Assembly (NCBI GenBank): GCA_043799475.1
Contig: JAZDNR010000014.1
Coordinates: forward strand, 1-39,378
Length of the DNA: 39,378 bases
Origin: Parcubacteria group bacterium
Lineage (GTDB): Bacteria; Patescibacteriota; JAUYIX01
Reading direction: 5' to 3'
Translations under genes and position numbers: made by a program
In this document: piece by piece, positions 1 to 14,271 of the stretch
Numbering within the stretch: the stretch's first letter is position 1
How the letters are laid out: every line of letters starts with the position of its first letter
Notes under the pieces: generated by a model
Told to the model about the DNA's origin: nothing
The model's input: only the letters and a program-made list of their open reading frames with translations
Databases searched by the model: none

Positions 1-23
1 AGAGTGCCCGAGTCAAGCTCGGG
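1..23 (-). repeat. Repeat module R0 (truncated by window edge)
   Basis: + sense: box remnant AGAGTG, then hairpin CCCGAG-tcaag-CTCGGG (7-23), followed by CCGAAAC. Confidence 0.5.
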
Positions 24-63
24 CCGAAACTTGAATGAAATTTGCATGGCATTACAACACTGA

Positions 64-108
64 ACTTCAAGCTCTTGCGAGCGGCCCGAACGCCCCGGGC
101 GGTCGGGC
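64..108 (-). repeat. Repeat module R1
   Basis: + sense: box ACTTCAAGCTCTTGCGAGCG (64-83; small hairpin GCTC-ttgc-GAGC), then hairpin GCCCGAACGCC-ccg-GGCGGTCGGGC (84-108), then TCAGAAC. Confidence 0.7.
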
Positions 109-153
109 TCAGAACTCAGATGCAGGACACATCGCCACAGCAAACGGTGCTTG

Positions 154-194
154 AGTGTAAGCCTTGTGGGCGCCCGACCGTAATGACGGTCAGG
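154..194 (-). repeat. Repeat module R2
   Basis: + sense: box AGTGTAAGCCTTGTGGGCG (154-172; GCCT-tgt-GGGC, a paired change relative to GCTC/GAGC), then CCCGACCGT-aatg-ACGGTCAGG (173-194), then CCGTTAC. Confidence 0.7.
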
Positions 195-264
195 CCGTTA
201 CAATGCACAAATCGACCTTATCGAAGTCAGCTGCGCTTGACTACAGGTTCGTAAAGAACCGCAG

Positions 265-292
265 AGGTTAGCAGCTCCGTTGGATTTGTCAA
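265..292 (-). promoter_or_regulatory. Sigma70-like promoter of TU1
   Basis: Minus strand: TTGACA (292-287), 16-nt spacer, TAACCT (270-265), followed by ctGCGGTTCTTT. The -35 directly abuts the T-tract of terminator 294-327. Confidence 0.6.
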
Positions 293-293
293 T

Positions 294-327
294 AAAAAAG
301 CCCGAACACCTTGAGAGATGTTCGGGC
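294..327 (-). terminator. Intrinsic terminator of TU2
   Basis: Minus strand: hairpin GCCCGAACA..TGTTCGGGC (300-327) followed by T6 (294-299). It differs by 1 nt from the terminator at 2101-2135. Confidence 0.75.
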
Positions 328-371
328 CTGGGCCATAGCCTACCTGAGGCCACCTTACTTGACCCTACCCT

Positions 372-422
372 AGTGCAATCTCAAGTTCTCACTTGAGCGC
401 CCGGTCGGGTTGTCCGGCCGGG
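372..422 (-). repeat. Repeat module R3
   Basis: + sense: box AGTGCAATCTCAAGTTCTCACTTGAGCG (372-399; CTCAAG-ttctca-CTTGAG), then CCCGGTCGG-gttgt-CCGGCCGGG (400-422), then CCGATAG. Confidence 0.65.
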
Positions 423-467
423 CCGATAGCATAGTGTACGCCACCCCACACAAGTCTGCGTGACTTC

Positions 468-509
468 AGTTCATACTCTTATGAGCGGGCCGAACACAAG
501 TGCTCGGCC
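468..509 (-). repeat. Repeat module R4
   Basis: + sense: box AGTTCATACTCTTATGAGCG (468-487; TCATA-ctct-TATGA), then GGCCGA..TCGGCC hairpin (488-509), then CCGAAAT. Confidence 0.65.
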
Positions 510-554
510 CCGAAATCTAGGTTTGCCGTAATCAAGAGGGCCTGGCGAAACTCA

Positions 555-591
555 AGTGCATTCTCTTGCGAGCGCCCGAGCATAGCTCGGG
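555..591 (-). repeat. Repeat module R5
   Basis: + sense: box AGTGCATTCTCTTGCGAGCG (555-574), then CCCGAGC-ata-GCTCGGG (575-591), then CAGATAC. Confidence 0.65.
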
Positions 592-636
592 CAGATACCT
601 TAGTGGAGTGTAACTCACGCCACTCAACCCCAGCGT

Positions 637-683
637 AGTGCATACCCTTTTGAGCGCCGAGCGCAGCCATGGCGGCCGGCCGG
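637..683 (-). repeat. Repeat module R6 (second hairpin degenerate)
   Basis: + sense: box AGTGCATACCCTTTTGAGCG (637-656), followed by a GC-rich palindromic run (657-683) instead of a clean hairpin. Confidence 0.45.
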
Positions 684-749
684 AAATATGCCCGAGCCGA
701 CACAAACATGCCGAGCACTACCTGACCAAATGTTCTTAAGGAACTCGGA

Positions 750-778
750 AGCATAAACGGCATTACCGCGCCTGTCAA
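750..778 (-). promoter_or_regulatory. Sigma70-like promoter of TU2
   Basis: Minus strand: TTGACA (778-773), 17-nt spacer, TATGCT (755-750), then tCCGAGTTCCTT. Confidence 0.6.
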
Positions 779-783
779 TAAAA

Positions 784-2099
784 TGTCCTGTAAAAGCTAG
801 ATTGTCAGGGCTCGGTAAAAGCAAGAATGTCAGGGTGTTATTAATCCTTAAATCTCACCCATGGCAACTAAGCAAACACAAAAACCGGACTACCTCTATA
901 GAGAAGAGGTAATCCGTCTCTGGCAGCGCAAACAGATCCCAATGCAGCGAGCACAAGAGTTACTGGATTGTAGCGAGCGCCATGTCTATCGGCTACAAGA
1001 CATGCTCGAGCAGCGCGGCACGTTGCGCTACCAATCACATCCTGCCTGGAACCGTACTCCGGCAGACTTGGAAGAAATCGTCTGTCGTAAAATTCGTGAG
1101 AATCCAGTCCGTAAAAACCAACACATAGCTGACCTGCTCGCAGAAGATGGTTTTGCGACTAACCGTGCCACGGTCCGTAATATCCGGATCCGCAATCATC
1201 TTAGGCAGGACCAGATCACACGGACAGCCTATGAGCGCTTTGAGCGTGAGCGAGTTGGTGAGTTGATCATGCAAGACACCTCTACCCATCACTGGGTAGC
1301 GGAATTACCAAAGCTCAAGCTCATCGCAAACCTGGATGATCACTCCCGGCTCATTCCCTTTGCACGCTTCTTTTGGCATGACGGCACGTGGCAGAATATG
1401 CTCGCGATCCGCTCAGTACTCGAGCGGTATGGCTTATTTGAGACCTTTTTTGTCGATCGGGCAGGACATTTCTCCGGACAAGATCGGTTGCTTATGGCCT
1501 CCTCGCGTATCACTCGAGGCGAAGATGAGCGCGTCCAAATTCCGCGAGCGCTCGCCGAGGCGCAGGTTACCTTATCTAAGGCGACTGCCTATCATCCTGA
1601 GTCTAAGGGCAAGATCGAGCGCTGGTTTGGGTTTGCACAAGGTCGCTTGCCCCACGATCTGCATGCGAGCACTCTTGCGGCTGCCAATACCCAACTAGCC
1701 GCCTGGGTCAGGTGGTACAACACGAAGCATATTAATGCTGAGACGAAGCAAATTCCCCTGGTACGCTTCCGTCAGGCGATGCGTGAGGGACGTAGTGCTT
1801 TTGCTCCGCTTAAACCACGCTTACCACTCGACGATATCTTCGCCTTTAGGGCAGAGCGCTTGGTCCGTAAAGACAACACCTTCTCCTATGGTGGCAAGAC
1901 GTACCACTTACAGCACGTGGGCGGTGAGCTAATGTATAAAACCTGCGAGCTACGCATCCGGCCAACTGCAATCCGCGTGTGGTACCGTGGCAATTACATT
2001 ACGTCCGTCCCATTCCAAGGACCCTTTGACCGCCCGATCGACTAACACTACTGACATCAAGCTTTTACAAAAGACTGACATTCTAGCGTTTACGTAACA
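784..2099 (+). mobile_element. IS481-family insertion sequence (about 1.3 kb)
   Basis: Terminal inverted repeats: TGTCCTGTAAAAGCTAGATTGTCAG (784-808) against the reverse complement of 2075-2099, TGTTACGTAAACGCTAGAATGTCAG (20/25 identical). A second subterminal copy lies at each end (814-833; 2051-2069). Direct repeat TAAAA flanks both sides (779-783, 2100-2104). There is a single DDE transposase ORF. Confidence 0.8.
861..2045 (+). CDS. IS481-family DDE transposase (N-terminal HTH plus rve integrase core)
   Basis: 394-aa ORF. rve-like catalytic region: DTSTHHW ... FFVDRAGHF ... HPESKGKIERWF. The N-terminal region is HTH-like. It is enclosed by the inverted repeats. Confidence 0.85.
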   Translation: MATKQTQKPDYLYREEVIRLWQRKQIPMQRAQELLDCSERHVYRLQDMLEQRGTLRYQSHPAWNRTPADLEEIVCRKIRENPVRKNQHIADLLAEDGFATNRATVRNIRIRNHLRQDQITRTAYERFERERVGELIMQDTSTHHWVAELPKLKLIANLDDHSRLIPFARFFWHDGTWQNMLAIRSVLERYGLFETFFVDRAGHFSGQDRLLMASSRITRGEDERVQIPRALAEAQVTLSKATAYHPESKGKIERWFGFAQGRLPHDLHASTLAAANTQLAAWVRWYNTKHINAETKQIPLVRFRQAMREGRSAFAPLKPRLPLDDIFAFRAERLVRKDNTFSYGGKTYHLQHVGGELMYKTCELRIRPTAIRVWYRGNYITSVPFQGPFDRPID

Positions 2100-2100
2100 T

Positions 2101-2135
2101 AAAAAAAGCCCGAACACCATGAGAGATGTTCGGGC
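2101..2135 (-). terminator. Intrinsic terminator of the helicase gene
   Basis: Minus strand: hairpin GCCCGAACA..TGTTCGGGC (2108-2135) followed by T7 (2101-2107), 76 nt downstream of the stop codon. Confidence 0.75.
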
Positions 2136-2210
2136 GAGCACTGGACCTGACGCGGTTGTGCAGCACGCTACGTCAGCGCGCTATGGTACGCAGTACCGCA
2201 ATCTCAAAAC

Positions 2211-4058
2211 CTACTTGGCCTTGAGCATCTTGATCGTCTCGGTCACCGCCTCGTCCATGCTCCGCAGAGGGAACATATACGAAGGCTTGAGCCACTCCGG
2301 CAACGCGCCGAGGAGGAACCGATGAAACACGCGGCTCACGAAGATCGTGACGCCCAGGTCCTCGCCCGATCGGATGTTCCGACCGCGGACCTGCAACGCC
2401 TCGTTCATCGCGCGCCACTGCCAACGAGCCCAGGCGCCGTTCTTGCTAAAGCGTCGCACCTCAAACTGCGCCTCGGGTGAGTCCAACGGCGGATAGCCCG
2501 GCCGCAGAAAGAAGATGCATGGCGCGATCTGTCGCGGCAAGTCGACTCCCTGTCCGTACTGCGCCGAGGTCCCGATGAGTACAGTTCCGAAGCCGCTCTT
2601 GAATTGTTCCGCCACCTGTCGTGCCGGCACACCCTCTCCGAGTGCACCGTAAGTGATGGCATCCAGCTCAATGTCCCGGGCGGCGTGTTCCATAAAGAAC
2701 TTGCGCTCCGTCTCAGACTGAACCACGACGAGCGACCGGTTGCCGGCCTCTCCCATCTCCTTGGCTGCCTTGGCGATCATGCGCAGTGCCTTGTGCACCG
2801 CCCACTTTCGTTTGTCGGGCAGCTTGTCGGAGGTGTTGGGTCCGTCGCGCAACAAGTAGACCCGGGTGTTCTCCGACGGAAATGGCGAGCCCAACTGGAC
2901 AAAATGTCCCTTGAGTCCCGTCTCGTAGCCGAGAATTGCCGGATCGCCGACCGTCGCCGAGTAGGCGATGAACTTCTTGCCCACTGCCTTCTTGATGAGC
3001 GGAGCCACGTAGTATGGCTTGATCACCAGGAAGTAGCGCGCCTTCTTCTTGGTCCCCTTGAATCCTACGTCGTTCTTCTGGAAGTAACTACACACGACGT
3101 AGTTGAGCGGGTTGTAGATCTCATTCTCCAAAGAGAACTCGAGGGACTTGATCATCCGCGGAATGCCGCGGGTCAAGTTCTCGAGGGTCTTGATGGTCTC
3201 ACGGTCGCCCACTGGATCGAGCTTGCCTGACGCGATCGCGGAGCGTACATGCCCTTCGATCTTGTCAGCGTCAAACTTGGCCAGCATCGCGATCATGATC
3301 TCCACCTCTGTGTCTTGCACCAGTGCTGGTTTGGACGACGGATGTCTACGACAGATCTGGACCAGTAGCCGGCGGAACTCATTGAGGAGCTTGGCCTGCT
3401 TGCGGTCGAACTGACGCAGGACGTAGGCGCACTTGGTAAGATGGAAGTCTGTGACGGTGTACTCGAAGATGCGCCGTGCGATCGACGCCAGCTGATGCAC
3501 TTCGTCCACTACTACGAGGGAGGGGTCAAGAGCACGCCAGCGGTGATCGAACGTCCTGTTCATCAAGAAGAACGCTGTGGTACAACCGATGATGGCCTTG
3601 GCCGCCTCCGCCTCCCTACGTAAACGAAACTTGTTCCAGAGGTAGGCGCAGGGAGTTACGCCCGGCTCCTGAGTCATGCCAGTTTCCTGGTCCACACGGT
3701 GCGGGCAGTCGAGCGAATAGCAGGGAGACTCCTGGGCGTCGATGTTGGGGACACCCCGATCCTCATAGTAGAGGCAGGGGTTATCGGACCGCCCAGTGAG
3801 CGGCTCGAGTTGCGGGTGCATGGCGACGAGCTGGCCGACCAACTGCTTGGTGGGAGTCGTATAGAAGTTGGGACCAAGACTGTTGGCTTGGCAGGCGAGC
3901 AGGCCGGTCACGCCGGCAACGGTTTTGCCGGTGCCCGGTGGGCCCTCGAGGATGACTGAGTTGTACTGGCTGAACGGATCGATCATCTGATTCTGTTGCG
4001 GACGCTTTTCGGCAAACGGAAAACTCACCTCGAGCGTCTTTTTGTCCGAGATAGCCAT
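2211..4058 (-). CDS. XPD/Rad3/DinG-family SF2 helicase with a four-cysteine putative 4Fe-4S insert
   Basis: 615 aa. Walker A GPPGTGKT, motif II VVDEVH, SAT, GTSAQYGQGVDLP and QVRGRNIRSGEDLG. Four Cys lie between motifs I and II (NPC..SPCYSLDC..TPC). RBS AAAGGAG is 4 nt before the ATG. Confidence 0.85.
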   Translation of the reverse strand: MAISDKKTLEVSFPFAEKRPQQNQMIDPFSQYNSVILEGPPGTGKTVAGVTGLLACQANSLGPNFYTTPTKQLVGQLVAMHPQLEPLTGRSDNPCLYYEDRGVPNIDAQESPCYSLDCPHRVDQETGMTQEPGVTPCAYLWNKFRLRREAEAAKAIIGCTTAFFLMNRTFDHRWRALDPSLVVVDEVHQLASIARRIFEYTVTDFHLTKCAYVLRQFDRKQAKLLNEFRRLLVQICRRHPSSKPALVQDTEVEIMIAMLAKFDADKIEGHVRSAIASGKLDPVGDRETIKTLENLTRGIPRMIKSLEFSLENEIYNPLNYVVCSYFQKNDVGFKGTKKKARYFLVIKPYYVAPLIKKAVGKKFIAYSATVGDPAILGYETGLKGHFVQLGSPFPSENTRVYLLRDGPNTSDKLPDKRKWAVHKALRMIAKAAKEMGEAGNRSLVVVQSETERKFFMEHAARDIELDAITYGALGEGVPARQVAEQFKSGFGTVLIGTSAQYGQGVDLPRQIAPCIFFLRPGYPPLDSPEAQFEVRRFSKNGAWARWQWRAMNEALQVRGRNIRSGEDLGVTIFVSRVFHRFLLGALPEWLKPSYMFPLRSMDEAVTETIKMLKAK

Positions 4059-4150
4059 GGTTCTCCTTTCTTGGCTGTGGTTTGCAGCCTAGGTTCAGAT
4101 TGACAACGAGCGCGTCTTGAGCGGATTTCAAGTCGTTTCAAGAACCGCGC

Positions 4151-4179
4151 AGCCTAGTCGAAGTGTGCAATTTTGTCAA
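4151..4179 (-). promoter_or_regulatory. Sigma70-like promoter of the helicase gene
   Basis: Minus strand: TTGACA (4179-4174), 17-nt spacer, TAGGCT (4156-4151), then gcGCGGTTCTTG. The predicted 5' UTR is about 86 nt. Confidence 0.65.
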
Positions 4180-4182
4180 TAT

Positions 4183-4212
4183 AAAAAGGGGAGCAGATGT
4201 TCTCTGTTCCCC
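4183..4212 (-). terminator. Intrinsic terminator of TU3
   Basis: Minus strand: hairpin GGGGAACAGA..TCTGCTCCCC (4188-4212) followed by TTTTT, then directly ATATTGACA (the next -35). Confidence 0.65.
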
Positions 4213-4256
4213 CGGTACTGCGTCCTAACGTATTCGACTGTGAGATGGCGTGCTAA

Positions 4257-4299
4257 ACCTTAAGCTCTTACGAGCATGGAGAACGATTACTCGTTCTCC
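4257..4299 (-). repeat. Repeat module R7
   Basis: + sense: box ACCTTAAGCTCTTACGAGCA (4257-4276; GCTC-ttac-GAGC), then GGAGAACGA-ttac-TCGTTCTCC (4278-4299), then CCTGGGC. Confidence 0.7.
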
Positions 4300-4359
4300 C
4301 CTGGGCTGTACTCGAGTTGAATGCGCCTTAGAAAACTCTGCGACAACTCGCTTAACTTT

Positions 4360-4406
4360 ACTGCAAGCTCTTGTGGAGCGGGAGGCGCCACGACCGAGAC
4401 GCCTCC
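4360..4406 (-). repeat. Repeat module R8
   Basis: + sense: box ACTGCAAGCTCTTGTGGAGCG (4360-4380; GCTC-ttgtg-GAGC), then GGAGGCG-12 nt loop-CGCCTCC (4381-4406). Confidence 0.7.
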
Positions 4407-4461
4407 TCGCGACATTAAAGAACTTGAGAATACGACGTCTGACCCAACTTATGAGAACCGA

Positions 4462-4502
4462 AGTTCAAGCTCCATTGAGAGCGCGGGGGCAACGAACCCC
4501 CG
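4462..4502 (-). repeat. Repeat module R9
   Basis: + sense: box AGTTCAAGCTCCATTGAGAGCG (4462-4483; GCTC-cattga-GAGC), then CGGGGG-caacgaa-CCCCCG (4484-4502). Confidence 0.7.
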
Positions 4503-4577
4503 CAGGTCAACTCTGCGTGGGTTCGCGCTGCGGCGAAATGCTGCTGTACACCCTGGTACATGTCTAAAGGACCAAAT

Positions 4578-4605
4578 AAGATAGCATCTATCGCATTAAA
4601 GTCAA
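4578..4605 (-). promoter_or_regulatory. Sigma70-like promoter of TU3
   Basis: Minus strand: TTGACT (4605-4600, overlapping the T-tract of the upstream terminator), 16-nt spacer, TATCTT (4583-4578), then atTTGGTCCTTT. Confidence 0.5.
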
Positions 4606-4635
4606 AAAAGAGAGGAGCAGAACGACATCTGCTCC
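4604..4635 (-). terminator. Intrinsic terminator of TU4b
   Basis: Minus strand: hairpin GGAGCAGA-tgtcgt-TCTGCTCC (4614-4635), then TCTC and T6 (4604-4609). Confidence 0.65.
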
Positions 4636-4791
4636 CCGAGTACTGCGCGACACGACTGCACAGCTTTGTACGCCCTGCCCCAGTGCAAGCTCTTATGGAG
4701 CGGGAGAACAAATTTGTTCTCCCCGTTACTCGGACTTGCAAAACGGCGCCTTACGCGAAAGCACCGTGCCTAAGAACATGTCCACGAGGGA
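4636..4791 (-). ncRNA. Non-coding unit TU4b (single module R10)
   Basis: Promoter 4798-4825. About 69 nt of leader, then module R10, a 46-nt unique segment and terminator 4604-4635. Confidence 0.5.
4682..4722 (-). repeat. Repeat module R10
   Basis: + sense: box AGTGCAAGCTCTTATGGAGCG (4682-4702; GCTC-ttatg-GAGC), then GGAGAACA-aatt-TGTTCTCC (4703-4722), then CCGTTAC. Confidence 0.7.
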
Positions 4792-4797
4792 CCAGAG

Positions 4798-4825
4798 AGA
4801 CTAGCACACCATCAAAAAAGTTCAA
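4798..4825 (-). promoter_or_regulatory. Weaker member of the same promoter family (TU4b)
   Basis: Minus strand: TTGAAC (4825-4820), 16-nt spacer, TAGTCT (4803-4798), then ctCTGGTCCCTC. Confidence 0.4.
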
Positions 4826-4826
4826 G

Positions 4827-4971
4827 ATAAAAGTGCGGGAGCAAATAGATCTCTGCCCCCGCCCACACCCGACCGTAGTGGCCCGCAAATTACCGAAGCC
4901 TTCTGTGGCCCACCCCGGTGAACGACACCCCACCTCATATCCCACAAGGGACTTTTACATCCATTGGCGAA
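4827..4971 (-). ncRNA. Non-coding unit TU4a (one degenerate module, weak terminator)
   Basis: Promoter 4978-5006. A hairpin at 4837-4860 is followed on the minus strand by GCACTTTTATCTT. No RBS-preceded ORF. Confidence 0.35.
4891..4920 (-). repeat. Possible degenerate 15th repeat module
   Basis: + sense: TACCGAAGCCTTCTGTGGC resembles the R2 box GTGTAAGCCTTGTGGGCG (GCC-ttctgt-GGC). It is followed only by a weak CACC/GGTG pairing. Confidence 0.25.
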
Positions 4972-4977
4972 CCGTGC

Positions 4978-5006
4978 AGGCTAATGTACGTTGGTCGATC
5001 GGTCAA
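4978..5006 (-). promoter_or_regulatory. Sigma70-like promoter of TU4a
   Basis: Minus strand: TTGACC (5006-5001), 17-nt spacer, TAGCCT (4983-4978), then gCACGGTTCGCC. The -35 abuts the T-tract of terminator 5008-5042. Confidence 0.6.
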
Positions 5007-5007
5007 T

Positions 5008-5042
5008 AAAAAAGGCGGTTCTCATTGCAAATGAGAACCGCC
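5008..5042 (-). terminator. Intrinsic terminator of TU5
   Basis: Minus strand: 13-bp hairpin GGCGGTTCTCATT-tgc-AATGAGAACCGCC (5014-5042) followed by T6 (5008-5013). Confidence 0.8.
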
Positions 5043-5325
5043 GCTGCCTGGCCCTACGCTAGAGGACACCACTGAACCTCTGACTACCCCACTGTAGTAC
5101 AAACCCATTACGGCGGGCGGTCCTAAGGTGAGACCGCCCTCGTCACCTTAGCGGGCAGGACTCAACGCAACGTCAGTTCAAGACCTTACGGTCGCGGGCA
5201 GTCCCGGATGAACCACCCGCCGGCACTGTATTTGACTCAGAACCGCCAAACGGAACTTGACTGTAAGCTTTTGCGAGCGAGCCCCCATTGAGAGGGCTCC
5301 GACACCACAGTTTGATTAGGAACAG
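5043..5325 (-). ncRNA. Longer non-coding unit TU5 (module R11 near the 5' end plus about 217 nt of structured RNA)
   Basis: Lies between the terminator of the 235-aa gene (5366-5397) and terminator 5008-5042. The 5' end is uncertain because no good promoter was found. It contains mutually complementary segments at 5115-5151. Confidence 0.4.
5260..5299 (-). repeat. Repeat module R11
   Basis: + sense: box ACTGTAAGCTTTTGCGAGCG (5260-5279; GCTT-ttgc-GAGC with a T-G pair), then GAGCCC-9 nt loop-GGGCTC (5279-5299). Confidence 0.65.
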
Positions 5326-5365
5326 TGAAACTAACCGGACACAACCTCAGACCTTTTGGGCAAAG

Positions 5366-5397
5366 AAAAAGGGGCAGTCTCAGAATGAGCCTGCCCC
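5366..5397 (-). terminator. Intrinsic terminator of the 235-aa protein gene
   Basis: Minus strand: hairpin GGGGCAG..CTGCCCC (5371-5397) followed by TTTTTCTTTG, 43 nt after the stop codon. Confidence 0.7.
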
Positions 5398-5439
5398 CGA
5401 CGAACGATCAGACGTGACGAAGATGAGATGACGAGATGG

Positions 5440-6147
5440 TTACGCCGTGGCCTCCGCCAGAGGTGCGGTGTTGAGGAGACGGTTGTACTCCTCCCACTCC
5501 TCGAGCTTGGCTGGACGCAGCTCATCAACCTCGTAAGTGCCGTAATCGCCACCGCAGTTCGGGCGAAAGGGCCCGAAACCGCCGAGACGCCCGGCCTCCA
5601 TGAGGATGTCGCAGATCTTCTCGAACGACGTGTAGTTCACGTCGAGATCTGCGAATCCGTCGACCACCCAACTCTCAGGAAAGAGCGGGCGCACGATAGG
5701 ACAGGGCTGACCCTTGCCCATGGAGTTCTTCAATAACCCCTGCTTGAGGTCTGGCTCCCAGGGCGTCGGCCAACCAGCGGGGGTCGGTGCCGGGGTGAAG
5801 CGGAAGTACTTGCCCTTGAGACGGAGGAAGGCGGGTAGGCGTGTCGCATTCGTCGCGCTGGTGAACTTCGCCTTGCCGTCAAACTTGACCTCCTTACCGC
5901 CCTGACGGAAGCTGGCCCAGACCCAGTCCTTGGGAATGACGAACAACGACGAGACCGGATGCAGGATGACCTTCTTGGCGCACCTCTCGCGCAGTGGCGT
6001 GACAGTGTCCTTCTGGCCCTTCTTCTTGTCGCTGAAGAAGGTATCCCAGATGTCCTGCGTGCGGTGGGGATCCTCGTAGATCGGCATGAGGCCGATGAGG
6101 CGGAAGTAGTGAAGCACCCAGTTTGTCCTTTTGCTGCCGATAGGCAT
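5440..6147 (-). CDS. Hypothetical 235-aa protein, paralog A of the island pair. The glycine-rich C-terminal motif is reminiscent of RAMP proteins.
   Basis: RBS GGAG is 6 nt before the ATG, and the gene has its own promoter and terminator. It aligns with the 194-aa protein at NWVLHYFRLIGL/GWTCHLFTLKGL and at IVRP..W..AGRLGGFGPFR..GDYGTYEVDELRP/IVRP..W..AGSLQGFGSYR..GYHGTFELEEFRP. Confidence 0.75.
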   Translation of the reverse strand: MPIGSKRTNWVLHYFRLIGLMPIYEDPHRTQDIWDTFFSDKKKGQKDTVTPLRERCAKKVILHPVSSLFVIPKDWVWASFRQGGKEVKFDGKAKFTSATNATRLPAFLRLKGKYFRFTPAPTPAGWPTPWEPDLKQGLLKNSMGKGQPCPIVRPLFPESWVVDGFADLDVNYTSFEKICDILMEAGRLGGFGPFRPNCGGDYGTYEVDELRPAKLEEWEEYNRLLNTAPLAEATA

Positions 6148-6246
6148 GACGAACTCCTTGTTCTAGCGTAGCGTTGTTTATGTCCATTTTGAGGGAACAG
6201 CTCACGACGGTGAGGTCTAGAGGCTATTCCGCCAACAAGACCCGCG

Positions 6247-6275
6247 AAGCTAGCAGATCGTCTTTTGGCTGTCAA
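6247..6275 (-). promoter_or_regulatory. Sigma70-like promoter of the 235-aa protein gene
   Basis: Minus strand: TTGACA (6275-6270), 17-nt spacer, TAGCTT (6252-6247), then cGCGGGTCTTGT. Confidence 0.65.
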
Positions 6276-6313
6276 GATTCTGTCCCGATCCTGTGCGATC
6301 CGTTGCGAACATT

Positions 6314-6348
6314 AAAAAATGAGCCAGCTTCTTGTTAGAAGCTGGCTC
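6314..6348 (-). terminator. Intrinsic terminator of the 194-aa protein gene
   Basis: Minus strand: 12-bp hairpin GAGCCAGCTTCT-aaca-AGAAGCTGGCTC (6321-6348) followed by T6 (6314-6319). Confidence 0.8.
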
Positions 6349-6426
6349 GTGCACCCTTGTGGATTACGCAGTAGGACACGACACGGTGCCTAGCTGAAGT
6401 GTAGACTGCTAGCGCAGCGAGTTCGA

Positions 6427-7011
6427 CTAGACCGGTCGGAACTCCTCGAGCTCAAAAGTGCCGTGATAGCCGTCCTTCTCAGCTCGATAGCTGCCGAAAC
6501 CCTGCAGCGACCCTGCGTCGTTGATCAGCTCGGTCACGAACTCCTCGACGTCCGGTGCTAGGCAGATGTGGCCCGAGGCCGTCCAGGGCAGTTCGATACT
6601 GGGCCGCACGATCCCGCACTTGGCCGACTTCTTGCTGTCGTACCCCTGGCGAATGTCAGCTCGCCAACCATTGCAGTTCAACTGGAGGCCCTGCCCGGAG
6701 AGGTGCAGGAGGTGACGTAAGCGCACGTACTTCTTGTTGCGTGTGTCATCCTTGGGCTTGATGGTGACGATGCGGCCGTCTGGTAGCACGCGACCCGCGG
6801 CTTGTGCGGCGAGAGCGGCCCAGAACATTTCGCGCGGGATGTGTGGATTGCCCTGATGGTCGGCGTGCAGCTTGTGACGCGCAAGGTCCTCGGGCTCGTC
6901 GCCGCGCTGGTAGCCCGGCGCACCCTTCTTTTGCATGAGGATGCTCTCGAGTCCCTTGAGGGTGAACAAGTGACACGTCCAGCCAGGTGGACGAGGCTTG
7001 AGGTGGTTCAT
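6427..7011 (-). CDS. Hypothetical 194-aa protein, paralog B of the island pair
   Basis: RBS AAAGGAG is upstream of the ATG, and the gene has its own promoter and terminator. It shares N-terminal W..H.F.L.GL and C-terminal IVRP / GFG..R / G.(Y/H)GT(Y/F)E(V/L).E(L/F)RP motifs with the 235-aa protein. Confidence 0.75.
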   Translation of the reverse strand: MNHLKPRPPGWTCHLFTLKGLESILMQKKGAPGYQRGDEPEDLARHKLHADHQGNPHIPREMFWAALAAQAAGRVLPDGRIVTIKPKDDTRNKKYVRLRHLLHLSGQGLQLNCNGWRADIRQGYDSKKSAKCGIVRPSIELPWTASGHICLAPDVEEFVTELINDAGSLQGFGSYRAEKDGYHGTFELEEFRPV

Positions 7012-7115
7012 GAGTACATACTCCTTTCGGGAGTGGGTTGATGAACGAGTTTTTGAAACGTGATGTTGAGGTGCAGCATCTCTCAGAGCTTTTGTTCAGC
7101 CCAAAAAGACCGCGC

Positions 7116-7144
7116 AAGCTAGCACGGCTTAATCGCATTGTCAA
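7116..7144 (-). promoter_or_regulatory. Sigma70-like promoter of the 194-aa protein gene
   Basis: Minus strand: TTGACA (7144-7139), 17-nt spacer, TAGCTT (7121-7116), then gcGCGGTCTTTT. Confidence 0.65.
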
Positions 7145-7155
7145 CTCCCGCAACT

Positions 7156-7191
7156 AAAAAAGAGGGAGACGTAACTTTGTTCACGTCTCCC
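7156..7191 (-). terminator. Intrinsic terminator of TU6
   Basis: Minus strand: hairpin GGGAGACGT..ACGTCTCCC (7164-7191), then CT and T6 (7156-7161). Confidence 0.7.
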
Positions 7192-7236
7192 CATGGACAC
7201 CACATGACTACGCCACATCTCGCGCCACCCAACCTG

Positions 7237-7283
7237 ACTGTAAGCTTTTCTAGAGCGAGAGCAGTTCTCGGGTAGAACTGCTC
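7237..7283 (-). repeat. Repeat module R12
   Basis: + sense: box ACTGTAAGCTTTTCTAGAGCG (7237-7257; GCTT-ttcta-GAGC), then GAGCAGTTCT-cgggt-AGAACTGCTC (7259-7283). Confidence 0.7.
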
Positions 7284-7350
7284 AATCAGGGTCTGACTCG
7301 AAAACACTAGACGTAAGGACAGGTGAGTGGACGACACTCCGCCCGACCAA

Positions 7351-7390
7351 AGTACAAGCTCGAAAGAGCTGGGAGAACAGTTGTTCTCCC
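7351..7390 (-). repeat. Repeat module R13
   Basis: + sense: box AGTACAAGCTCGAAAGAGCT (7351-7370; AGCTC-gaaa-GAGCT, stem extended by a paired change), then GGGAGAAC-agtt-GTTCTCCC (7371-7390), then CTGGGCG. Confidence 0.7.
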
Positions 7391-7464
7391 CTGGGCGCCA
7401 CATTACTCTGAACTGGCACGCAACGGCATTGTGTACTTAAGAACAAGTCCTCGATGGACACGGC

Positions 7465-7493
7465 AAACTAACATATGATCTTGTAACTGAAAA
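7465..7493 (-). promoter_or_regulatory. Degenerate member of the island promoter family (TU6)
   Basis: Minus strand: TTTTCA (7493-7488), 17-nt spacer, TAGTTT (7470-7465), then gCCGTGTCCATC. Compare TAGCTTgcGCGGTCTT in the other promoters. Confidence 0.35.
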
Positions 7494-7502
7494 GGCTGCG
7501 TG

Positions 7503-8198
7503 TCAGCCGACCGGATTTTTGCCATCGTGCCGCTGCAGGTTACGTACAAACTGATCCAAGATCAAAAAGACTACCGCCATCATGAGCAGGAGAATGCTGA
7601 TCTTGGTACTGGAGTTGGAGATGGCCACAAAATCGTAGAGGCCGTGCAGTCCAATCCCTAGTAGCAAACCAAATAGCACCAGCCAGGCTCCGCCCCGCCG
7701 AGCAAATTTTCCTAGTCCCATAAAGTAGCCGATAATCCCAGCAGCGAGAGCGTGTAGCAAGGTCGCAGTCACAAAACGCAAGGGCAGGATCGAGGCGCCC
7801 TCACCCAGCACTACTAAGATGTTCTCCACAGTGGCAAAGCCGAGTGCGGCCACCACCATGTACATCACGCCATCCATGCGTTCATCAAAAACGCGATGGT
7901 GATAAACACTCAAAAAAACTATGGCAAATTTGGCGAGTTCCTCGATGGGTGCTATCACCGCAAAAGCTCCGATGATTGCCGCGCGACTAAAACCCGGTGC
8001 AGAATAATGCAAATACAAATCGATCGTGTACTCAATAAAAAGGGCCGGCAATGTCACGAGCATCCCCAGTAAAAACACGCGCCATAAAAAACGCCTAGGC
8101 TCGGGGTGTTTGCCGTCGGCCCGCAGATACCACCACAACCAAAAGAGCCCAGGTAGCAGTGCGAGGACAATGTTACGTAAGTCAACGAGGAAGTTCAC
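7503..8198 (-). CDS. PrsW-family intramembrane protease
   Basis: 231-aa polytopic membrane protein with EELAKF, FATVEN, HALAAG and HGLYDF motifs. GTG start. Confidence 0.8.
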   Translation of the reverse strand: MNFLVDLRNIVLALLPGLFWLWWYLRADGKHPEPRRFLWRVFLLGMLVTLPALFIEYTIDLYLHYSAPGFSRAAIIGAFAVIAPIEELAKFAIVFLSVYHHRVFDERMDGVMYMVVAALGFATVENILVVLGEGASILPLRFVTATLLHALAAGIIGYFMGLGKFARRGGAWLVLFGLLLGIGLHGLYDFVAISNSSTKISILLLMMAVVFLILDQFVRNLQRHDGKNPVG

Positions 8199-8220
8199 CT
8201 AGCCATACATGTTACGCTAA

Positions 8221-9783
8221 GTGGGCATGTTGAGCGAACGCGCCACGAGCCAACGTTTGCGCGAGCTTCTTGAGAGGCCCGCGGCAAACCCTCTACTGGT
8301 CCTGGCCCGTCGGCCTGGTGTCGAGGTTTACGTCGTGGGGGGTGCGGTACGCGATGCTCTGCTCGGGGTAACTGTGACCGACTTGGACTTGGTTGTGCGG
8401 GGTCTGCCGCAACCACAGCTCGAGCGAATTTTGCGGCGAGCCGGTCGCGTAGTTTTGGCCGGCAAGCGTTTTGGCGTGATCAAGTTTAGGGCGCGTGGCG
8501 CGTCTGAGAGCATTGATGTTGCCCTACCTCGCAGCGAACAGCCGACCGGTCGGGGAGGCTATCGCGATGTGCATGTTGTGGCTGACCACCTGCTGCCAAT
8601 TGAGCAGGACCTCGCGCGGCGCGACTTTACGATCAACGCCATTGCACTCAACCTACAGAGTGGCCGACAGAGTGGCAGATTGGTCGATCCCTTTGGGGGT
8701 AGAGCAGACCTCAAAGCTAAACTTATTCGGACGGTGGGGGATCCCGCCAAGCGTTTTAGCGAAGACTACACGCGTCTGTTGCGGGCTGTGCGTTTTGCCG
8801 TGCAGTTCGGTTTTGGGCTCGAGCGCCAGACCTTGCAAGTTCTACAACAACATGCGGCCGATCTCCCTCGTACGACCGCTTACCCATACCCTCAGGGTGA
8901 ACGTCTGGTGGCCTGGGAGCTAATTGGTCGCGAGGTCGGTCGTATGTTTTTTGCTAACGCCGCACGCGCAGTTGATCTTCTCGAGCAAACCAAACTATTA
9001 CACGAGGTTCTCCCGGAGGTGGATCGGCTTCGCACTATCAAACAGGACCCGAAATTTCATCCCGAGGGTGATGTCCTGACTCATACCAAGCAAGCTCTCT
9101 TGCGCCTGCACCAGGTAGAACCGGGCGCTAGTCTCACGCTCATTCTCTCAGTTTTGCTGCACGATGCTGGTAAGGCCACACATGTACAGATACGCGATCG
9201 CAAACTTGGGACCACTGTTAATCTATCCCGCCCCGCTGAGTTTTTTGCAAGTGAACGTTACCAACCCGCCCGTCAGCGCATTATGAACATCGGCCACCCC
9301 GCTGAGTCGGCGCGCATAGCCCAGCGCATTATTAAGCGACTCAAGCTTACGCAGTTTAGGCGCGATCCTCAGATAGGCCTTGATCAGATGGCCATCTTAC
9401 ATAATCTTGAAAACCATCTATTGCTCGATATTGAGAATGTTCGTCCGGCGCGTGCGGAGAAAATTCTGTTTTACCCCGATGGTCGCGTGCGTTGGGATTT
9501 GCTGACACTAATAAAGCTTGACGCAGGGCCCGGGTCGGATCGGCCGGCTAAGGTTTTTGCGCGAGTGCAGAAACTTTTGGCGCGTAAACTTGATCAAGCC
9601 GCCGAGCAGCAACTGCCGGCACCCTTGCTGACCGGGCATGATCTTAAAAAAATGAAGGTTGAACCTGGCCCGATTTACAAAGTTGTTTTGGAAGCAGTAC
9701 GCGACGCGCAGCTCGCCGGTCGGGTGACCGACCAGGCGGCTGCGCGTCGCGTTGCTAAAGATCTACTGGCGCGCCTGCGTTAG
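8221..9783 (+). CDS. cca: tRNA nucleotidyltransferase/poly(A) polymerase family protein with HD domain (probable CCA-adding enzyme)
   Basis: GGAVRD and DLDLVV nucleotidyltransferase motifs, and LLHDAGK (HD). The start is GTG 8221 or ATG 8227. Confidence 0.8.
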   Translation: MGMLSERATSQRLRELLERPAANPLLVLARRPGVEVYVVGGAVRDALLGVTVTDLDLVVRGLPQPQLERILRRAGRVVLAGKRFGVIKFRARGASESIDVALPRSEQPTGRGGYRDVHVVADHLLPIEQDLARRDFTINAIALNLQSGRQSGRLVDPFGGRADLKAKLIRTVGDPAKRFSEDYTRLLRAVRFAVQFGFGLERQTLQVLQQHAADLPRTTAYPYPQGERLVAWELIGREVGRMFFANAARAVDLLEQTKLLHEVLPEVDRLRTIKQDPKFHPEGDVLTHTKQALLRLHQVEPGASLTLILSVLLHDAGKATHVQIRDRKLGTTVNLSRPAEFFASERYQPARQRIMNIGHPAESARIAQRIIKRLKLTQFRRDPQIGLDQMAILHNLENHLLLDIENVRPARAEKILFYPDGRVRWDLLTLIKLDAGPGSDRPAKVFARVQKLLARKLDQAAEQQLPAPLLTGHDLKKMKVEPGPIYKVVLEAVRDAQLAGRVTDQAAARRVAKDLLARLR

Positions 9784-13875: not shown

Positions 13876-14271
13876 CCGGCCACCCTAGACGAGTGGACTG
13901 CAGTTATCCAGAGATCAGTGGAAAAGGGCAGTGGATTGCTCGTGCAAAGATTGTGCAAGCTCTACTGCTTGACTAAACCAAAAGTTCACAAACTTGGGGT
14001 ACTATATCCATGCGATTCGTAGCTGCTTGTTCGGTCACAAGACCCTCCGGTAGCCACTGAATGTCTCGCCTGGTGAGGTCTGGGAAGTGCCTCGCCGCGC
14101 GAGCAGGGCTACAAGTAGAGCAGCTGACTCGCAAAAACATAAGAGCTCTAAAAGGCTCCGTCTCTTGATTCCCGGAAGGCCGCACGGCGATTACGCCCAC
14201 GCGGCTTTTCGGTTTGTCTAAATGGTCTCTTTATGCCCACTTTTAGGCCCATTTGCGCTATTTTTGTGCCC

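What the first reader, a model, noticed from the sequence alone, without database searches (positions are those of the whole stretch)
1..7508. Insulated minus-strand island: an XPD/DinG-like helicase, two paralogous small proteins and at least 7 structured non-coding array units (candidate undescribed RNA-array / CRISPR-like system)
Seen: every element between 1 and 7508 reads on the minus strand. From high to low coordinate the order is TU6 (R13, R12), the 194-aa protein, the 235-aa paralog, TU5 (R11), TU4a, TU4b (R10), TU3 (R9-R7), the 615-aa helicase, the IS481 insertion, TU2 (R6-R3) and TU1 (R2-R0, continuing off-window). Nine related promoters partition it into monocistronic units, most closed by a hairpin/T-tract terminator (eight clear, one weak; TU1's 3' end is off-window). 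About 40 percent of the island has no credible ORF. No cas1/cas2, integrase, reverse transcriptase or obvious nuclease is visible in the window. Sampled stretches of the three CDS look more GC-rich than the neighbours, but I did not compute this. Established: type IV CRISPR-Cas combines a DinG-family helicase (Csf4/CasDinG) with small RAMP proteins (Cas7/Csf2, Cas5/Csf3, Cas6) and usually lacks adaptation genes. Inference: a helicase, two RAMP-like paralogs and arrays of structured repeats separated by unique fixed-length segments could be a very divergent, minimal RNA-guided system. Alternatively it could be another RNA-array-based defence or mobile module, for example antitoxin-like or decoy RNAs. 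The left boundary is outside the window.
Basis: partly seen in the sequence, partly recalled or inferred. Interest (0 to 1): 0.9.

Follow-up and report, generated by a model that had tools for sequence, protein, structure and literature searches.

The report
Helicase-linked VIPR RNA-guided locus in Parcubacteria
The island is a chromosomal VIPR system, a recently described CRISPR-like RNA-guided DNA-recognition system, with two RAMP (Vipr) proteins, an XPD/DinG-type helicase and about two dozen guide RNAs built from 5-nt repeats; it is real but it is a new member of a kind first reported in 2026, not an undescribed system.

Summary

The "unique segments" between modules are tracts of 8-14 pentanucleotide repeats with consensus N-R-G-Y-N. 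A pyrimidine occupies position 4 in 115 of 124 units (p = 3e-25).

A profile of the small-protein family matches the solved SUSP1 Vipr protein (E = 1e-12). The AlphaFold model (pLDDT 94) matches Cas7/Csm3 RAMPs.

This is therefore a VIPR system (bioRxiv 10.64898/2026.04.26.720920): Vipr filaments on GGY/NN-repeat vrRNAs that read DNA with a one-base-skip code.

Of 51 genome loci found through the helicase alone, 48 carry a Vipr gene and most carry same-strand repeat tracts. All look like Patescibacteria loci.

It is probably the helicase-bearing VIPR type, type IV by elimination.

Local peculiarities:
- a second divergent Vipr;
- a relaxed RGY motif that fits a lost Asp in the G-loop;
- guide tracts in mRNA 3' UTRs;
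- a variable-hairpin plus conserved GNRA-mini-hairpin junction in polycistronic arrays.

No targets were found.

The parts
2211..4058 (-). XPD/DinG-family SF2 helicase (615 aa), the likely VIPR accessory (vap) helicase. It has Walker A and DExH motifs and four invariant cysteines (C95, C113, C118, C137), consistent with an Fe-S cluster.
   Evidence: Pfam Helicase_C_2 and DEAD. PADLOC typeIV_DinG model PDLC01439 at 3.2e-40 over the full length, and the best hit for all 25 family members. The family profile scores best against XPD in the PDB, 1.8e-19. Invariant cysteines.
5440..6147 (-). vipr-A: 235-aa Vipr (ancestral RAMP, Cas7-like), the canonical Vipr of the helicase-linked family.
   Evidence: The profile of 79 homologues hits PDB 36pp_D 'SUSP1 Vipr protein' at E = 1.1e-12. 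The AF2 model has pLDDT 93.7. Foldseek finds Csm3/Cas7 at E about 1e-6 and a viral uncharacterised protein at 2e-11. It is 27-32% identical to the Vipr ORFs next to helicase homologues.
6427..7011 (-). vipr-B: 194-aa divergent Vipr paralogue.
   Evidence: BLASTP against vipr-A gives 6e-13. The Vipr HMM scores 113 bits. A 58%-identical orthologue lies on L006 in the same gene order.
815..2093 (+). Insertion sequence (394-aa rve-type transposase at 861-2045, ISNCY/IS481-like) with imperfect inverted ends. It sits between the helicase terminator and the TU2 promoter and interrupts no gene or vrRNA.
   Evidence: (inverted repeat I1).
7196..7492 (-). TU6: promoter 7492-7465; leader with weak periodicity; module A 7355-7391; tract A 7295-7354 (12 units); module B 7241-7284; tract B 7196-7240 (9 units).
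7163..7192 (-). Terminator of TU6. Its hairpin is the 3' hairpin of vrRNA B.
7116..7144 (-). Promoter of vipr-B (TTGACA-17-TAGCTT).
6321..6411 (-). vrRNA tract in the 3' UTR of vipr-B (6352-6411, 12 units) plus terminator hairpin 6348-6321.
   Evidence: L006 has the same arrangement after its orthologue.
6247..6275 (-). Promoter of vipr-A (TTGACA-17-TAGCTT).
5366..5398 (-). Terminator after vipr-A.
   Evidence: Read from the sequence.
5014..5352 (-). TU5, with no clear promoter: tract C0 5303-5352; module C 5264-5300; tract C 5214-5263; module C2 5179-5221; tract C2 5144-5178; module C3 5100-5140; tract C3 5045-5099; terminator 5042-5014.
4835..5006 (-). TU4a: promoter 5006-4978; a single vrRNA tract with its best-scoring part at 4866-4935 (14 units); terminator 4862-4835. 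This is a monocistronic vrRNA gene without a module.
4612..4825 (-). TU4b: promoter 4825-4798; tract D0 4727-4776; module D 4686-4724; tract D 4641-4685; terminator 4637-4612.
4183..4605 (-). TU3: promoter 4605-4578; leader tract 4503-4570; module E 4466-4504; tract E 4411-4465; module F 4364-4407; tract F 4304-4363; module G 4261-4300; tract G 4216-4260; terminator 4213-4183.
4151..4179 (-). Promoter of the helicase gene (TTGACA-17-TAGGCT).
2108..2203 (-). vrRNA tract in the helicase 3' UTR (2139-2203; 13 units, all 13 with a pyrimidine at position 4) plus terminator 2135-2108.
   Evidence: A tract follows the helicase stop codon within 130 nt in 30 of 52 related loci, against 5 of 52 in the antisense control.
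298..778 (-). TU2: promoter 778-750; leader tract 684-728; module H 641-683 (weak fold); tract H 596-640; module I 559-594; tract I 514-558; module J 472-511; tract J 427-471; module K 381-424; tract K 331-380; terminator 329-298.
1..292 (-). TU1: promoter 292-265; tract 199-248; module L0 158-196; tract 113-157; module L 68-109; tract L 28-67; module M 1-27, cut off by the contig end.

Best explanation
The island is a chromosomally encoded VIPR (Viral Interference Programmable Repeat) system of the helicase-associated kind, in a Parcubacteria (Patescibacteria) genome.

**Shown here**
- Two Vipr-family RAMP proteins and one XPD/DinG-family helicase with four conserved cysteines are expressed from promoters of a single family.
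- That promoter family also drives six RNA transcription units.
- The RNA units carry about 22-25 tracts of 8-14 pentanucleotide repeats (N-R-G-Y-N, equivalent to YNNRG).
- Each tract ends in a GC-rich hairpin, either a terminator or the P1 hairpin of a junction module.

**Inferred by homology with the characterised SUSP1 and P. fulva systems**
1. Each tract plus its 3' hairpin is a vrRNA.
2. Vipr protomers polymerise along the tract, one per repeat. They sequester R-G-Y and display the two variable bases.
3. The displayed dinucleotides read double-stranded DNA with one base skipped after every two (NNx), forming an R-loop triplex.

**Inferred with less support**
- The helicase is recruited to the bound target and unwinds or clears DNA 5'->3'. 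This would strengthen silencing or block replication of an invading element, as CasDinG does for type IV-A CRISPR. No nuclease is encoded.
- In polycistronic units, the conserved P2 mini-hairpin plus UUG marks the boundary where neighbouring vrRNAs are separated, by a host RNase or by the second Vipr.
- The 194-aa paralogue is a specialised cap or handle-binding subunit.
For: **Protein identity**
- HMMER over 1.84 billion representatives found 274 relatives of the two paralogues. Their profile hits the solved SUSP1 Vipr at 1.1e-12 over 190 residues.
- The AF2 model with that alignment has pLDDT 93.7. Its Foldseek matches are Cas7/Csm3 RAMPs.
- SUSP1 residues that contact the second G and the pyrimidine are conserved: R138 aligns with R153, W178 with F194 or Y174, and R179 with R195 or R175. 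D177, which reads the first G, is Pro or Ser here (residue roles).

**RNA code**
- In the fixed register that starts right after each module, position 4 is a pyrimidine in 115 of 124 units (p = 3e-25) and position 3 is G in 75 of 124 (p = 5e-13). Positions 1 and 5 carry no information. The first motif position is A or G, which fits the lost Asp.
- A position-weight scan gives 22 tracts on the island's minus strand and 17 over the remaining 64 kb of both strands.
- The published definition is 9-16 YNNGG repeats plus a structured 3' tail, with YNNNG, NNNGG and NNNNG variants.

**Co-occurrence**
- Of 51 genome loci found with the helicase profile alone, 48 hold a Vipr ORF within 8 kb. Most also carry many same-strand periodic tracts, up to about 45.
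- Relatives show promoter-TGCAGT-tract-terminator units, or arrays in which a hairpin alternates with a tract.

**Other points**
- The paper states that types III-V carry nuclease or helicase accessory genes and that only III and V carry nucleases.
- No guide has a self-target beyond chance level on the contig, as the paper also reports for its systems.
Against: - There are no expression, processing or binding data for this locus or for any helicase-type VIPR.
- No natural target was found. Exact NNx patterns for three guides gave nothing in viral or metagenome contigs except one match, which is no more than chance would give.
- In SUSP1 the GGY>AGY substitution was among the motif perturbations reported to abolish silencing. 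The A-rich first position here therefore needs the altered pocket that I infer but did not test.
- The type assignment (IV) is by elimination. The paper's figures and tables could not be read.
- The helicase profile matches XPD better than any solved CasDinG, so the CasDinG analogy is functional only.
- The roles I give to P2 and to the second Vipr rest on anatomy alone.
- Module H folds no better than shuffled sequence.
Confidence: 0.88

Rival explanations
1. It is a highly divergent, minimal type IV CRISPR-Cas system. The modules would be CRISPR repeats, the segments between them spacers, the small proteins Csf2/Csf3-like and the helicase CasDinG.
For: - The helicase family's best defence-library hit is a DinG model labelled as associated with type IV-A.
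- The small proteins have the Cas7 fold.
- There are no adaptation genes, as in type IV.
- Some relatives have arrays in which one conserved hairpin alternates with segments of about 60 nt.
Against: - The 'spacers' have a strict 5-nt R-G-Y periodicity. CRISPR spacers do not.
- In the window the long hairpin differs in every unit, so there is no direct repeat. Tandem Repeats Finder and the repeat finder detect no array.
- No Csf1, Cas5 or Cas6 is present. Neither small protein hits any Cas model in PADLOC, Pfam or NCBIfam, yet their family profile hits Vipr at 1e-12.
- Many units are monocistronic genes with their own promoter and terminator.
- The core Csf4 models score only weakly: 1e-10 at best, in 3 of 25 family members.
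Confidence: 0.04
2. The locus is a decaying or inactive remnant of a VIPR system. An IS has invaded it and the arrays have diverged, so it no longer acts on any target.
For: - An IS sits inside the island.
- Many repeat units depart from R-G-Y. G is at position 3 in only 60% of units.
- Module H is degenerate.
- TU5 lacks a promoter.
- No targets were found.
Against: - All three ORFs are intact and full length relative to their homologues.
- The catalytic helicase motifs and the four cysteines are invariant.
- The IS lies between a terminator and a promoter and disrupts nothing.
- Nine promoters and nine terminators are intact.
- The paper notes internal degeneracy of repeats in functional vrRNAs.
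- The missing targets are expected. Phages of Patescibacteria are poorly sampled, and only exact matching was possible here.
Confidence: 0.06
3. The RNA arrays are not guides. They are regulatory, decoy or antitoxin RNAs, as in a type III toxin-antitoxin system, or sponges bound by the small proteins, and the helicase is unrelated to them.
For: - The RNAs are arrays of structured units transcribed next to small RNA-binding proteins.
- Type III antitoxins are also repeat arrays that precede a terminator and a protein gene.
Against: - The small proteins are Vipr/RAMP, not ToxN/AbiE-type endoribonucleases.
- The variable positions are exactly the two of every five that carry guide information in VIPR.
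- The helicase co-occurs with Vipr and the tracts in 48 of 51 loci.
- No toxin-like domain was found.
Confidence: 0.02

Closest known systems
VIPR systems (Vipr protein plus vrRNA; bioRxiv 10.64898/2026.04.26.720920 and 10.64898/2026.04.26.720927), probably the helicase-bearing type
   Same: - The small proteins are Vipr-family RAMPs.
- The guide RNAs are built from 8-14 pentanucleotide repeats, with three conserved and two hypervariable positions, followed by a 3' hairpin.
- Several vrRNA genes flank the protein genes.
- An accessory gene acts on DNA.
- There is no CRISPR array and no cas1 or cas2.
- There is no self-targeting.
   Different: - The host is a Patescibacteria chromosome flanked by housekeeping genes, not a phage or prophage.
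- The motif is R-G-Y rather than G-G-Y, and the Asp that reads the first G is replaced.
- There are two diverged Vipr genes. The paper counts 670 Vipr proteins in 667 systems.
- Polycistronic arrays are joined by a variable hairpin plus a conserved GNRA-type mini-hairpin, not by hammerhead ribozymes or staggered overlaps.
- Some vrRNA tracts are embedded in mRNA 3' UTRs.
- Nothing in this type has been tested experimentally.
Type IV-A CRISPR-Cas (Csf complex plus CasDinG)
   Same: - A RAMP-based RNA-guided complex is paired with a DinG/XPD-family 5'->3' helicase.
- There is no nuclease and no adaptation module.
- The expected outcome is interference without cleavage.
- The helicase family's best defence-library hit is a DinG model associated with type IV-A.
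   Different: - There is no CRISPR repeat-spacer array, and no Csf1, Cas5 or Cas6.
- The RAMPs belong to the Vipr clade.
- The guides are gapped pentanucleotide codes.
- The helicase keeps four cysteines of an XPD-like Fe-S motif. CasDinG is reported to have only a vestigial Fe-S domain; this is from my own knowledge and was not tested here.
- No solved CasDinG appears among the helicase profile's PDB hits.
Type III-A Csm3 / Cas7 backbone subunits
   Same: They are the closest solved folds to the 235-aa protein: Foldseek E about 1e-6, TM about 0.5, with an RRM core, G-loop and thumb.
   Different: Sequence identity is only 10-14%. There is no Cas10, Csm2, Csm4 or Csm5, and no CRISPR array.

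Membership tests
VIPR system | A Vipr protein: a minimal RAMP homologous to the SUSP1/P. fulva Vipr family. | tested here: met
   The family profile scores 1.1e-12 against PDB 36pp_D (SUSP1 Vipr) over residues 2-192. The model has a RAMP fold with pLDDT 93.7. G-loop and thumb residues R138, W178 and R179 have conserved counterparts.
VIPR system | vrRNAs made of tandem pentanucleotide repeats with conserved GGY (or a related consensus) alternating with hypervariable NN, at least 4 and typically 9-16 units. | tested here: met
   There are 22 or more tracts of 7-14 units with consensus N-R-G-Y-N. Position 4 is a pyrimidine in 93% of units (p = 3e-25) and positions 1 and 5 carry no information. 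The first G is relaxed to A or G, which lies within the paper's 'related consensus' (YNNNG).
VIPR system | The repeat tract is followed by a structured, conserved 3' tail. | tested here: inconclusive
   Every tract ends at a GC-rich hairpin, either P1 or a terminator. However, the hairpin sequence differs between units, and the conserved element (P2) lies after it. Without mapped RNA ends I cannot say which side P2 belongs to.
VIPR system | A minimal locus: vipr plus an accessory (vap) gene acting on DNA, long non-coding flanks, no CRISPR array and no cas1/cas2. | tested here: met
   The locus holds two vipr genes and one XPD/DinG helicase, is 42% non-coding, and has no Cas or adaptation domains. 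The helicase-Vipr linkage holds in 48 of 51 loci.
VIPR system | vrRNAs are expressed, co-purify with Vipr and direct DNA binding by the one-base-skip rule. | not testable with these tools
   This needs small-RNA sequencing, pull-downs and reporter assays. Computationally, only exact NNx matching was possible, and it gave no convincing target.
VIPR type IV (helicase type) | Position in the published Vipr phylogeny, together with that type's vap gene and vrRNA architecture. | not testable with these tools
   The text says that types III-V carry nucleases or helicases and that only III and V carry nucleases. The tree, the locus diagrams and the data files are not held. The assignment is by elimination only.
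Type IV CRISPR-Cas | A CRISPR array of near-identical direct repeats separated by unique spacers. | tested here: not met
   Tandem Repeats Finder and the repeat finder detect no such array. P1 differs in every unit, and the intervening segments are 5-nt periodic.
Type IV CRISPR-Cas | Csf1 (large subunit), Cas5/Csf3 and Cas6/Csf5 alongside Cas7/Csf2. | tested here: not met
   Only two small proteins are present. Neither hits any Cas model in PADLOC, Pfam or NCBIfam.
Type IV CRISPR-Cas | A CasDinG (Csf4) helicase. | tested here: inconclusive
   The 'associated' DinG model PDLC01439 is the best hit for all 25 family members (down to 2.5e-48). The core Csf4 models hit only 3-5 members weakly. NCBIfam lists no Csf4 match. 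The PDB profile search favours XPD.
Hammerhead-interspersed vrRNA arrays | A hammerhead ribozyme between adjacent vrRNAs. | tested here: not met
   No Rfam ribozyme family matches the minus strand of 1-7600, even at E <= 5. The junctions lack the CUGANGA and GAAA core sequences.
Type III toxin-antitoxin | Near-identical tandem RNA repeats processed by a ToxN-like endoribonuclease toxin. | tested here: not met
   The repeats are not near-identical, and the proteins are RAMP/Vipr.

The most novel reading that the evidence does not exclude
The helicase-linked Patescibacteria VIPR family, and this two-Vipr locus in particular, could be a living intermediate between single-RAMP VIPR and multi-subunit class 1 CRISPR effectors of the type IV kind. 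On this reading:
- the divergent 194-aa paralogue has specialised, like Cas5 or Cas6, to recognise the conserved P2 mini-hairpin and to define or cap vrRNA ends in polycistronic arrays;
- the XPD/DinG helicase plays the CasDinG role;
- relatives with a single conserved hairpin alternating with about 60-nt guide tracts (L038, L040, L049) are functional analogues of repeat-spacer arrays that lack only an adaptation module.
Probability: 0.15. Interest if true: 0.75.

Novelty: new member of a known kind. Interest (0 to 1): 0.45.

Why it matters
VIPR was reported only in 2026, and experiments so far cover the phage-borne type II, plus small-RNA sequencing for types III and V. This locus and the roughly 50 relatives recovered here supply several things that work lacks:

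- **A sequence-level description of the helicase-linked form.** It is chromosomal, found in Patescibacteria, has up to about 45 guide tracts per locus, and is tightly linked to an Fe-S XPD/DinG helicase.
- **A natural test of how the GGY pocket co-varies with the repeat motif.** Asp is replaced by Pro or Ser, and the first G becomes A or G.
- **Examples of RAMP duplication inside VIPR.** The authors postulate this step on the way to CRISPR.
- **New ways of packaging guides.** These are tracts in 3' UTRs, and polycistronic arrays joined by a double hairpin.

If the helicase works like CasDinG, this would be an independent pairing of a RAMP filament with a DinG-type motor. That bears on the origin of type IV CRISPR.

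Tried and rejected
- **Three-way junction.** I first read each module as a three-way junction closed by pairing between its flanks, for example CCUGAUUG with CAGUCAGG. I dropped this once the flanks proved to be periodic R-G-Y tracts, whose composition creates such complementarity by itself.
- **Ribozyme junctions.** I tested for a hammerhead or other self-cleaving ribozyme. Rfam has no hit at the gathering threshold or at E <= 5, and the core motifs are absent.
- **Word-indexed protein searches.** Searches with either small protein returned only the query itself. The exhaustive HMMER search was needed.
- **Single-sequence AlphaFold.** The model was useless, with pLDDT 31.5.
- **Locus search with the Vipr alignment.** The search for related loci failed because the alignment has no conserved stretch. 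I used the helicase alignment instead.
- **Library and phage searches.** Pfam, PADLOC and NCBIfam have no model for the small proteins; the only library match is a weak hit to PHROG 4652, of unknown function. tblastn against GenBank phages found nothing.
- **Covariance model.** The MAFFT alignment of the modules does not respect the P1 stems, so I built no covariance model. I relied on per-module folding with shuffles instead.
- **Target searches.** No guide has a self-target at 80% or better NN match beyond a few short-guide hits of the kind chance gives. Exact NNx patterns of guides F and A gave nothing in viral or metagenome contigs. Guide K gave one hit, in a low-GC phage tail gene. Its flanking dinucleotides match only 1 of 2 on each side and its skipped base is not at the wobble position, so I judge it chance.
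- **Synteny.** Only L002/L003 share the CCA-enzyme neighbour.

Full report
**What is in the sequence**

The window is the complete 39,378-nt contig of a MAG labelled 'Parcubacteria group bacterium'. Outside the island it encodes housekeeping genes: a CCA-adding enzyme, HisRS, ValRS, the Suf system and tRNA-Glu. Nothing there suggests a prophage.

Three intact minus-strand genes are present:
- a 615-aa helicase at 2211-4058;
- a 235-aa protein at 5440-6147;
- a 194-aa protein at 6427-7011.

A plus-strand rve-type transposase lies inside an IS at about 815-2093. Nine minus-strand promoters share one pattern, TTGACA-N16-17-TAnnnT followed by nnnnGGTYC. There are nine hairpin/T-tract terminators. 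About 42% of the island has no ORF.

The two small proteins are paralogues (6e-13, 29% identity).

The repeated module is real. It consists of a GC-rich hairpin P1 whose sequence differs in every copy, followed after 0-2 nt by a conserved mini-hairpin P2 and then UUG, UUA or AUG. P2 is usually GCUC-GNRA-like loop-GAGC. It covaries to GACC/GGUC in one copy and to GCC/GGC in another. Of 15 complete copies, 14 have this fold as their minimum-free-energy structure, with z-scores from -2.6 to -5.8 against dinucleotide shuffles. Module H is the exception. I count 16 modules rather than 14. No Rfam family matches.

The segments between modules are not arbitrary. I read them in the register that begins right after P2 and its three trailing bases, a register I fixed before looking at periodicity. 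Twelve tracts then resolve into 124 pentamers with consensus N-R-G-Y-N:
- position 4 is a pyrimidine in 115 of 124 units (p = 3e-25);
- position 3 is G in 75 of 124 (p = 5e-13);
- position 2 is A (41%) or G (30%);
- positions 1 and 5 carry essentially no information;
- the other four registers show no such signal.

A position-weight scan finds 22 tracts on the island's minus strand. It finds 17 in the remaining roughly 64 kb of both strands, at a threshold set from that outside sequence.

Tracts also begin at the transcription starts of the RNA units. They fill the monocistronic unit TU4a, and they occupy the 3' UTRs of the helicase gene (13 of 13 units with a pyrimidine at position 4) and of the 194-aa gene. 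Every tract ends at a GC-rich hairpin, either a P1 or a terminator.

**What the proteins are**

Word-indexed searches found nothing but the queries themselves. Pfam, NCBIfam and PADLOC have no model for the small proteins.

An exhaustive HMMER search with the two-paralogue profile found 274 cluster representatives. A profile of 79 of them matches one solved structure, 36pp chain D, named 'SUSP1 Vipr protein', at E = 1.1e-12 over almost its whole length. With that alignment, AlphaFold gives a confident model (pLDDT 93.7). Its best PDB matches are all Cas7-type RAMPs (Csm3; E about 1e-6, TM about 0.5). Its best viral match is an uncharacterised virus protein (2e-11).

The helicase has Walker A and DExH motifs and four invariant cysteines between them. 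Its family profile is closest to XPD among solved structures (1.8e-19). All 25 aligned members hit the same PADLOC model best, a DinG model labelled as associated with type IV-A CRISPR. The core Csf4 models are hit only weakly.

**Comparison with what is known**

Two 2026 preprints describe VIPR systems:
- The Vipr protein is a minimal RAMP that the authors argue predates CRISPR.
- vrRNAs are about 100 nt long and contain 9-16 YNNGG repeats followed by a structured 3' tail.
- One protomer binds each repeat. It sequesters GGY and presents NN.
- DNA is read with one base skipped after each dinucleotide.
- There are seven types with different accessory (vap) genes. Types III-V carry nucleases or helicases, and only III and V carry nucleases.
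- Variant repeat motifs exist (YNNNG, NNNGG, NNNNG).
- Array architectures vary, and include hammerhead-interspersed and staggered arrays.

The island meets the testable defining features: a Vipr homologue, pentanucleotide-code RNAs that end in a hairpin, a DNA-acting accessory gene, and no CRISPR array or adaptation genes. By elimination it is the helicase type (IV). I could not read the figures or data tables that would confirm this.

One detail links protein and RNA. Of the SUSP1 residues that hold the motif, those that contact the second G and the pyrimidine (R138, W178, R179) have conserved counterparts in both window proteins. D177, which reads the first G, is Pro in the 235-aa protein and Ser in the 194-aa protein. 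Correspondingly, the first motif position here is A or G rather than G. This is an inference from alignment, not a test.

**Related loci**

I searched one genome per species with the helicase profile alone and recovered 51 loci. Most carry Patescibacteria labels. A few MAGs are labelled Gammaproteobacteria or archaea but carry the same locus.
- 48 of the 51 have a Vipr ORF within 8 kb. Two of the three exceptions are truncated contigs.
- Most have many periodic tracts on the helicase strand and few on the other. Five loci have 40-45.
- A tract follows the helicase stop codon within 130 nt in 30 of 52 loci, against 5 of 52 in the antisense control.
- A second, more divergent Vipr occurs in six loci besides the window.
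- The short contig L006 carries a 58%-identical orthologue of the 194-aa protein. It is followed by a vrRNA unit with its own double hairpin and then the start of a 235-like gene.

Guide packaging differs between relatives. L001 and L004 have strings of monocistronic promoter-TGCAGT-tract-terminator genes. L038, L040 and L049 have arrays in which one conserved hairpin alternates with tracts of about 60 nt. The window mixes monocistronic units with polycistronic ones joined by the P1-P2 module. I did not see that junction form in the other loci.

**How it most likely works**

Shown: the parts list and its conservation across loci.

Inferred from the characterised type II systems: each tract with its 3' hairpin is a vrRNA; Vipr polymerises on it; and the displayed dinucleotides bind double-stranded DNA of an invading element by the NNx rule.

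Inferred with less support:
- The Fe-S XPD/DinG helicase is loaded at the bound site and extends interference by unwinding or by displacing polymerases, as CasDinG does for type IV-A. No nuclease is present.
- P2 plus UUG marks where neighbouring vrRNAs are separated.
- The second Vipr is a specialised subunit.

I found no targets. There is no self-target beyond chance, which is what the paper reports for its own systems. Exact gapped patterns for three guides found nothing in viral or metagenome collections, apart from one match that I judge to be chance. This is weak negative evidence, because only exact matching was possible and phages of these bacteria are poorly sampled.

**Verdict**

It is wrong in filing, because this is not type IV CRISPR and is no longer undescribed. 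The locus is a new member of the VIPR kind, with local variations worth noting. Interest is moderate.

Noticed in passing
window 2102-2135 and 294-327; IS at about 815-2093: The helicase terminator and the TU2 terminator are 97% identical over 34 nt (repeat D7). After the TU2 copy comes TTTTTTATTGACA, a promoter -35 element. After the helicase copy, the IS end begins at the corresponding point. The IS may therefore have landed in, or replaced, a promoter that once followed the helicase terminator.
   Followed up: partly
window promoters listed, for example 7144-7116 and 4179-4151: All nine promoters, for protein genes as well as RNA genes, are followed 4-5 nt after the -10 element by GGTYC. 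This looks like a first R-G-Y repeat unit at the transcription start. Even the mRNAs may therefore begin with a Vipr-binding unit, which hints at autoregulation or co-assembly.
   Followed up: no
window P2 modules, for example 4364-4378, compared with promoters 7116-7121 and 6247-6252: The 3' half of P2 plus the start of the tract (GAGCTTGCAGT) resembles the -10 element plus start region of the locus promoters (TAGCTTGCGCGGT). The junction modules may descend from terminator-promoter junctions, or may keep weak promoter activity without a -35 element.
   Followed up: no
L036, L038, L040, L049, L051 (helicase-strand arrays, for example L038 4760-5600): Some relatives carry 40-45 periodic tracts arranged like a CRISPR array. 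A single conserved hairpin (L038: GGUCAGC...GAAA...GCUGAC; L040/L049: GAGCAAG...CUUGCU) alternates with tracts of about 60 nt, and there are no T-runs between units.
   Followed up: partly
L007, L014, L018, L020, L021, L030, L041, L046, L056: MAG records titled 'uncultured Gammaproteobacteria', 'Woesearchaeota' or 'Aenigmatarchaeota' carry the same helicase-Vipr loci as Patescibacteria genomes. This suggests mislabelled bins or mis-binned contigs rather than a wide host range.
   Followed up: no
L052 (Kerfeldbacteria, helicase at 8001-9656): This is the only long locus with a helicase homologue (37% identity) but no Vipr ORF and no periodic tract within 8 kb. It may be a helicase that has lost its VIPR partner, or a paralogue with another role.
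   Followed up: no
L058 9961-9986 (IMGVR_UViG_3300006790_000277): This is the only exact NNx match, for guide K with 18 specified bases. It lies in a 512-aa tail-fibre-like gene of a low-GC phage. The flanking dinucleotides match only 1 of 2 on each side, and the skipped base falls on codon position 1. I judged it to be chance.
   Followed up: yes
window 33891-33965 (-) and 13876-13930 (-): Short stretches outside the island score as periodic R-G-Y tracts (16.0 and 12.4). The first lies antisense inside the ValRS gene. The second lies just upstream of a glycosyltransferase gene. Both are probably chance, and neither has an adjacent hairpin or promoter.
   Followed up: partly
window 8221-9783 and L002 4727-6232: A CCA-adding/poly(A) polymerase gene neighbours the VIPR locus both in the window and in the GCA_028711565 relative (49% identity). 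No other locus shares this neighbour.
   Followed up: yes
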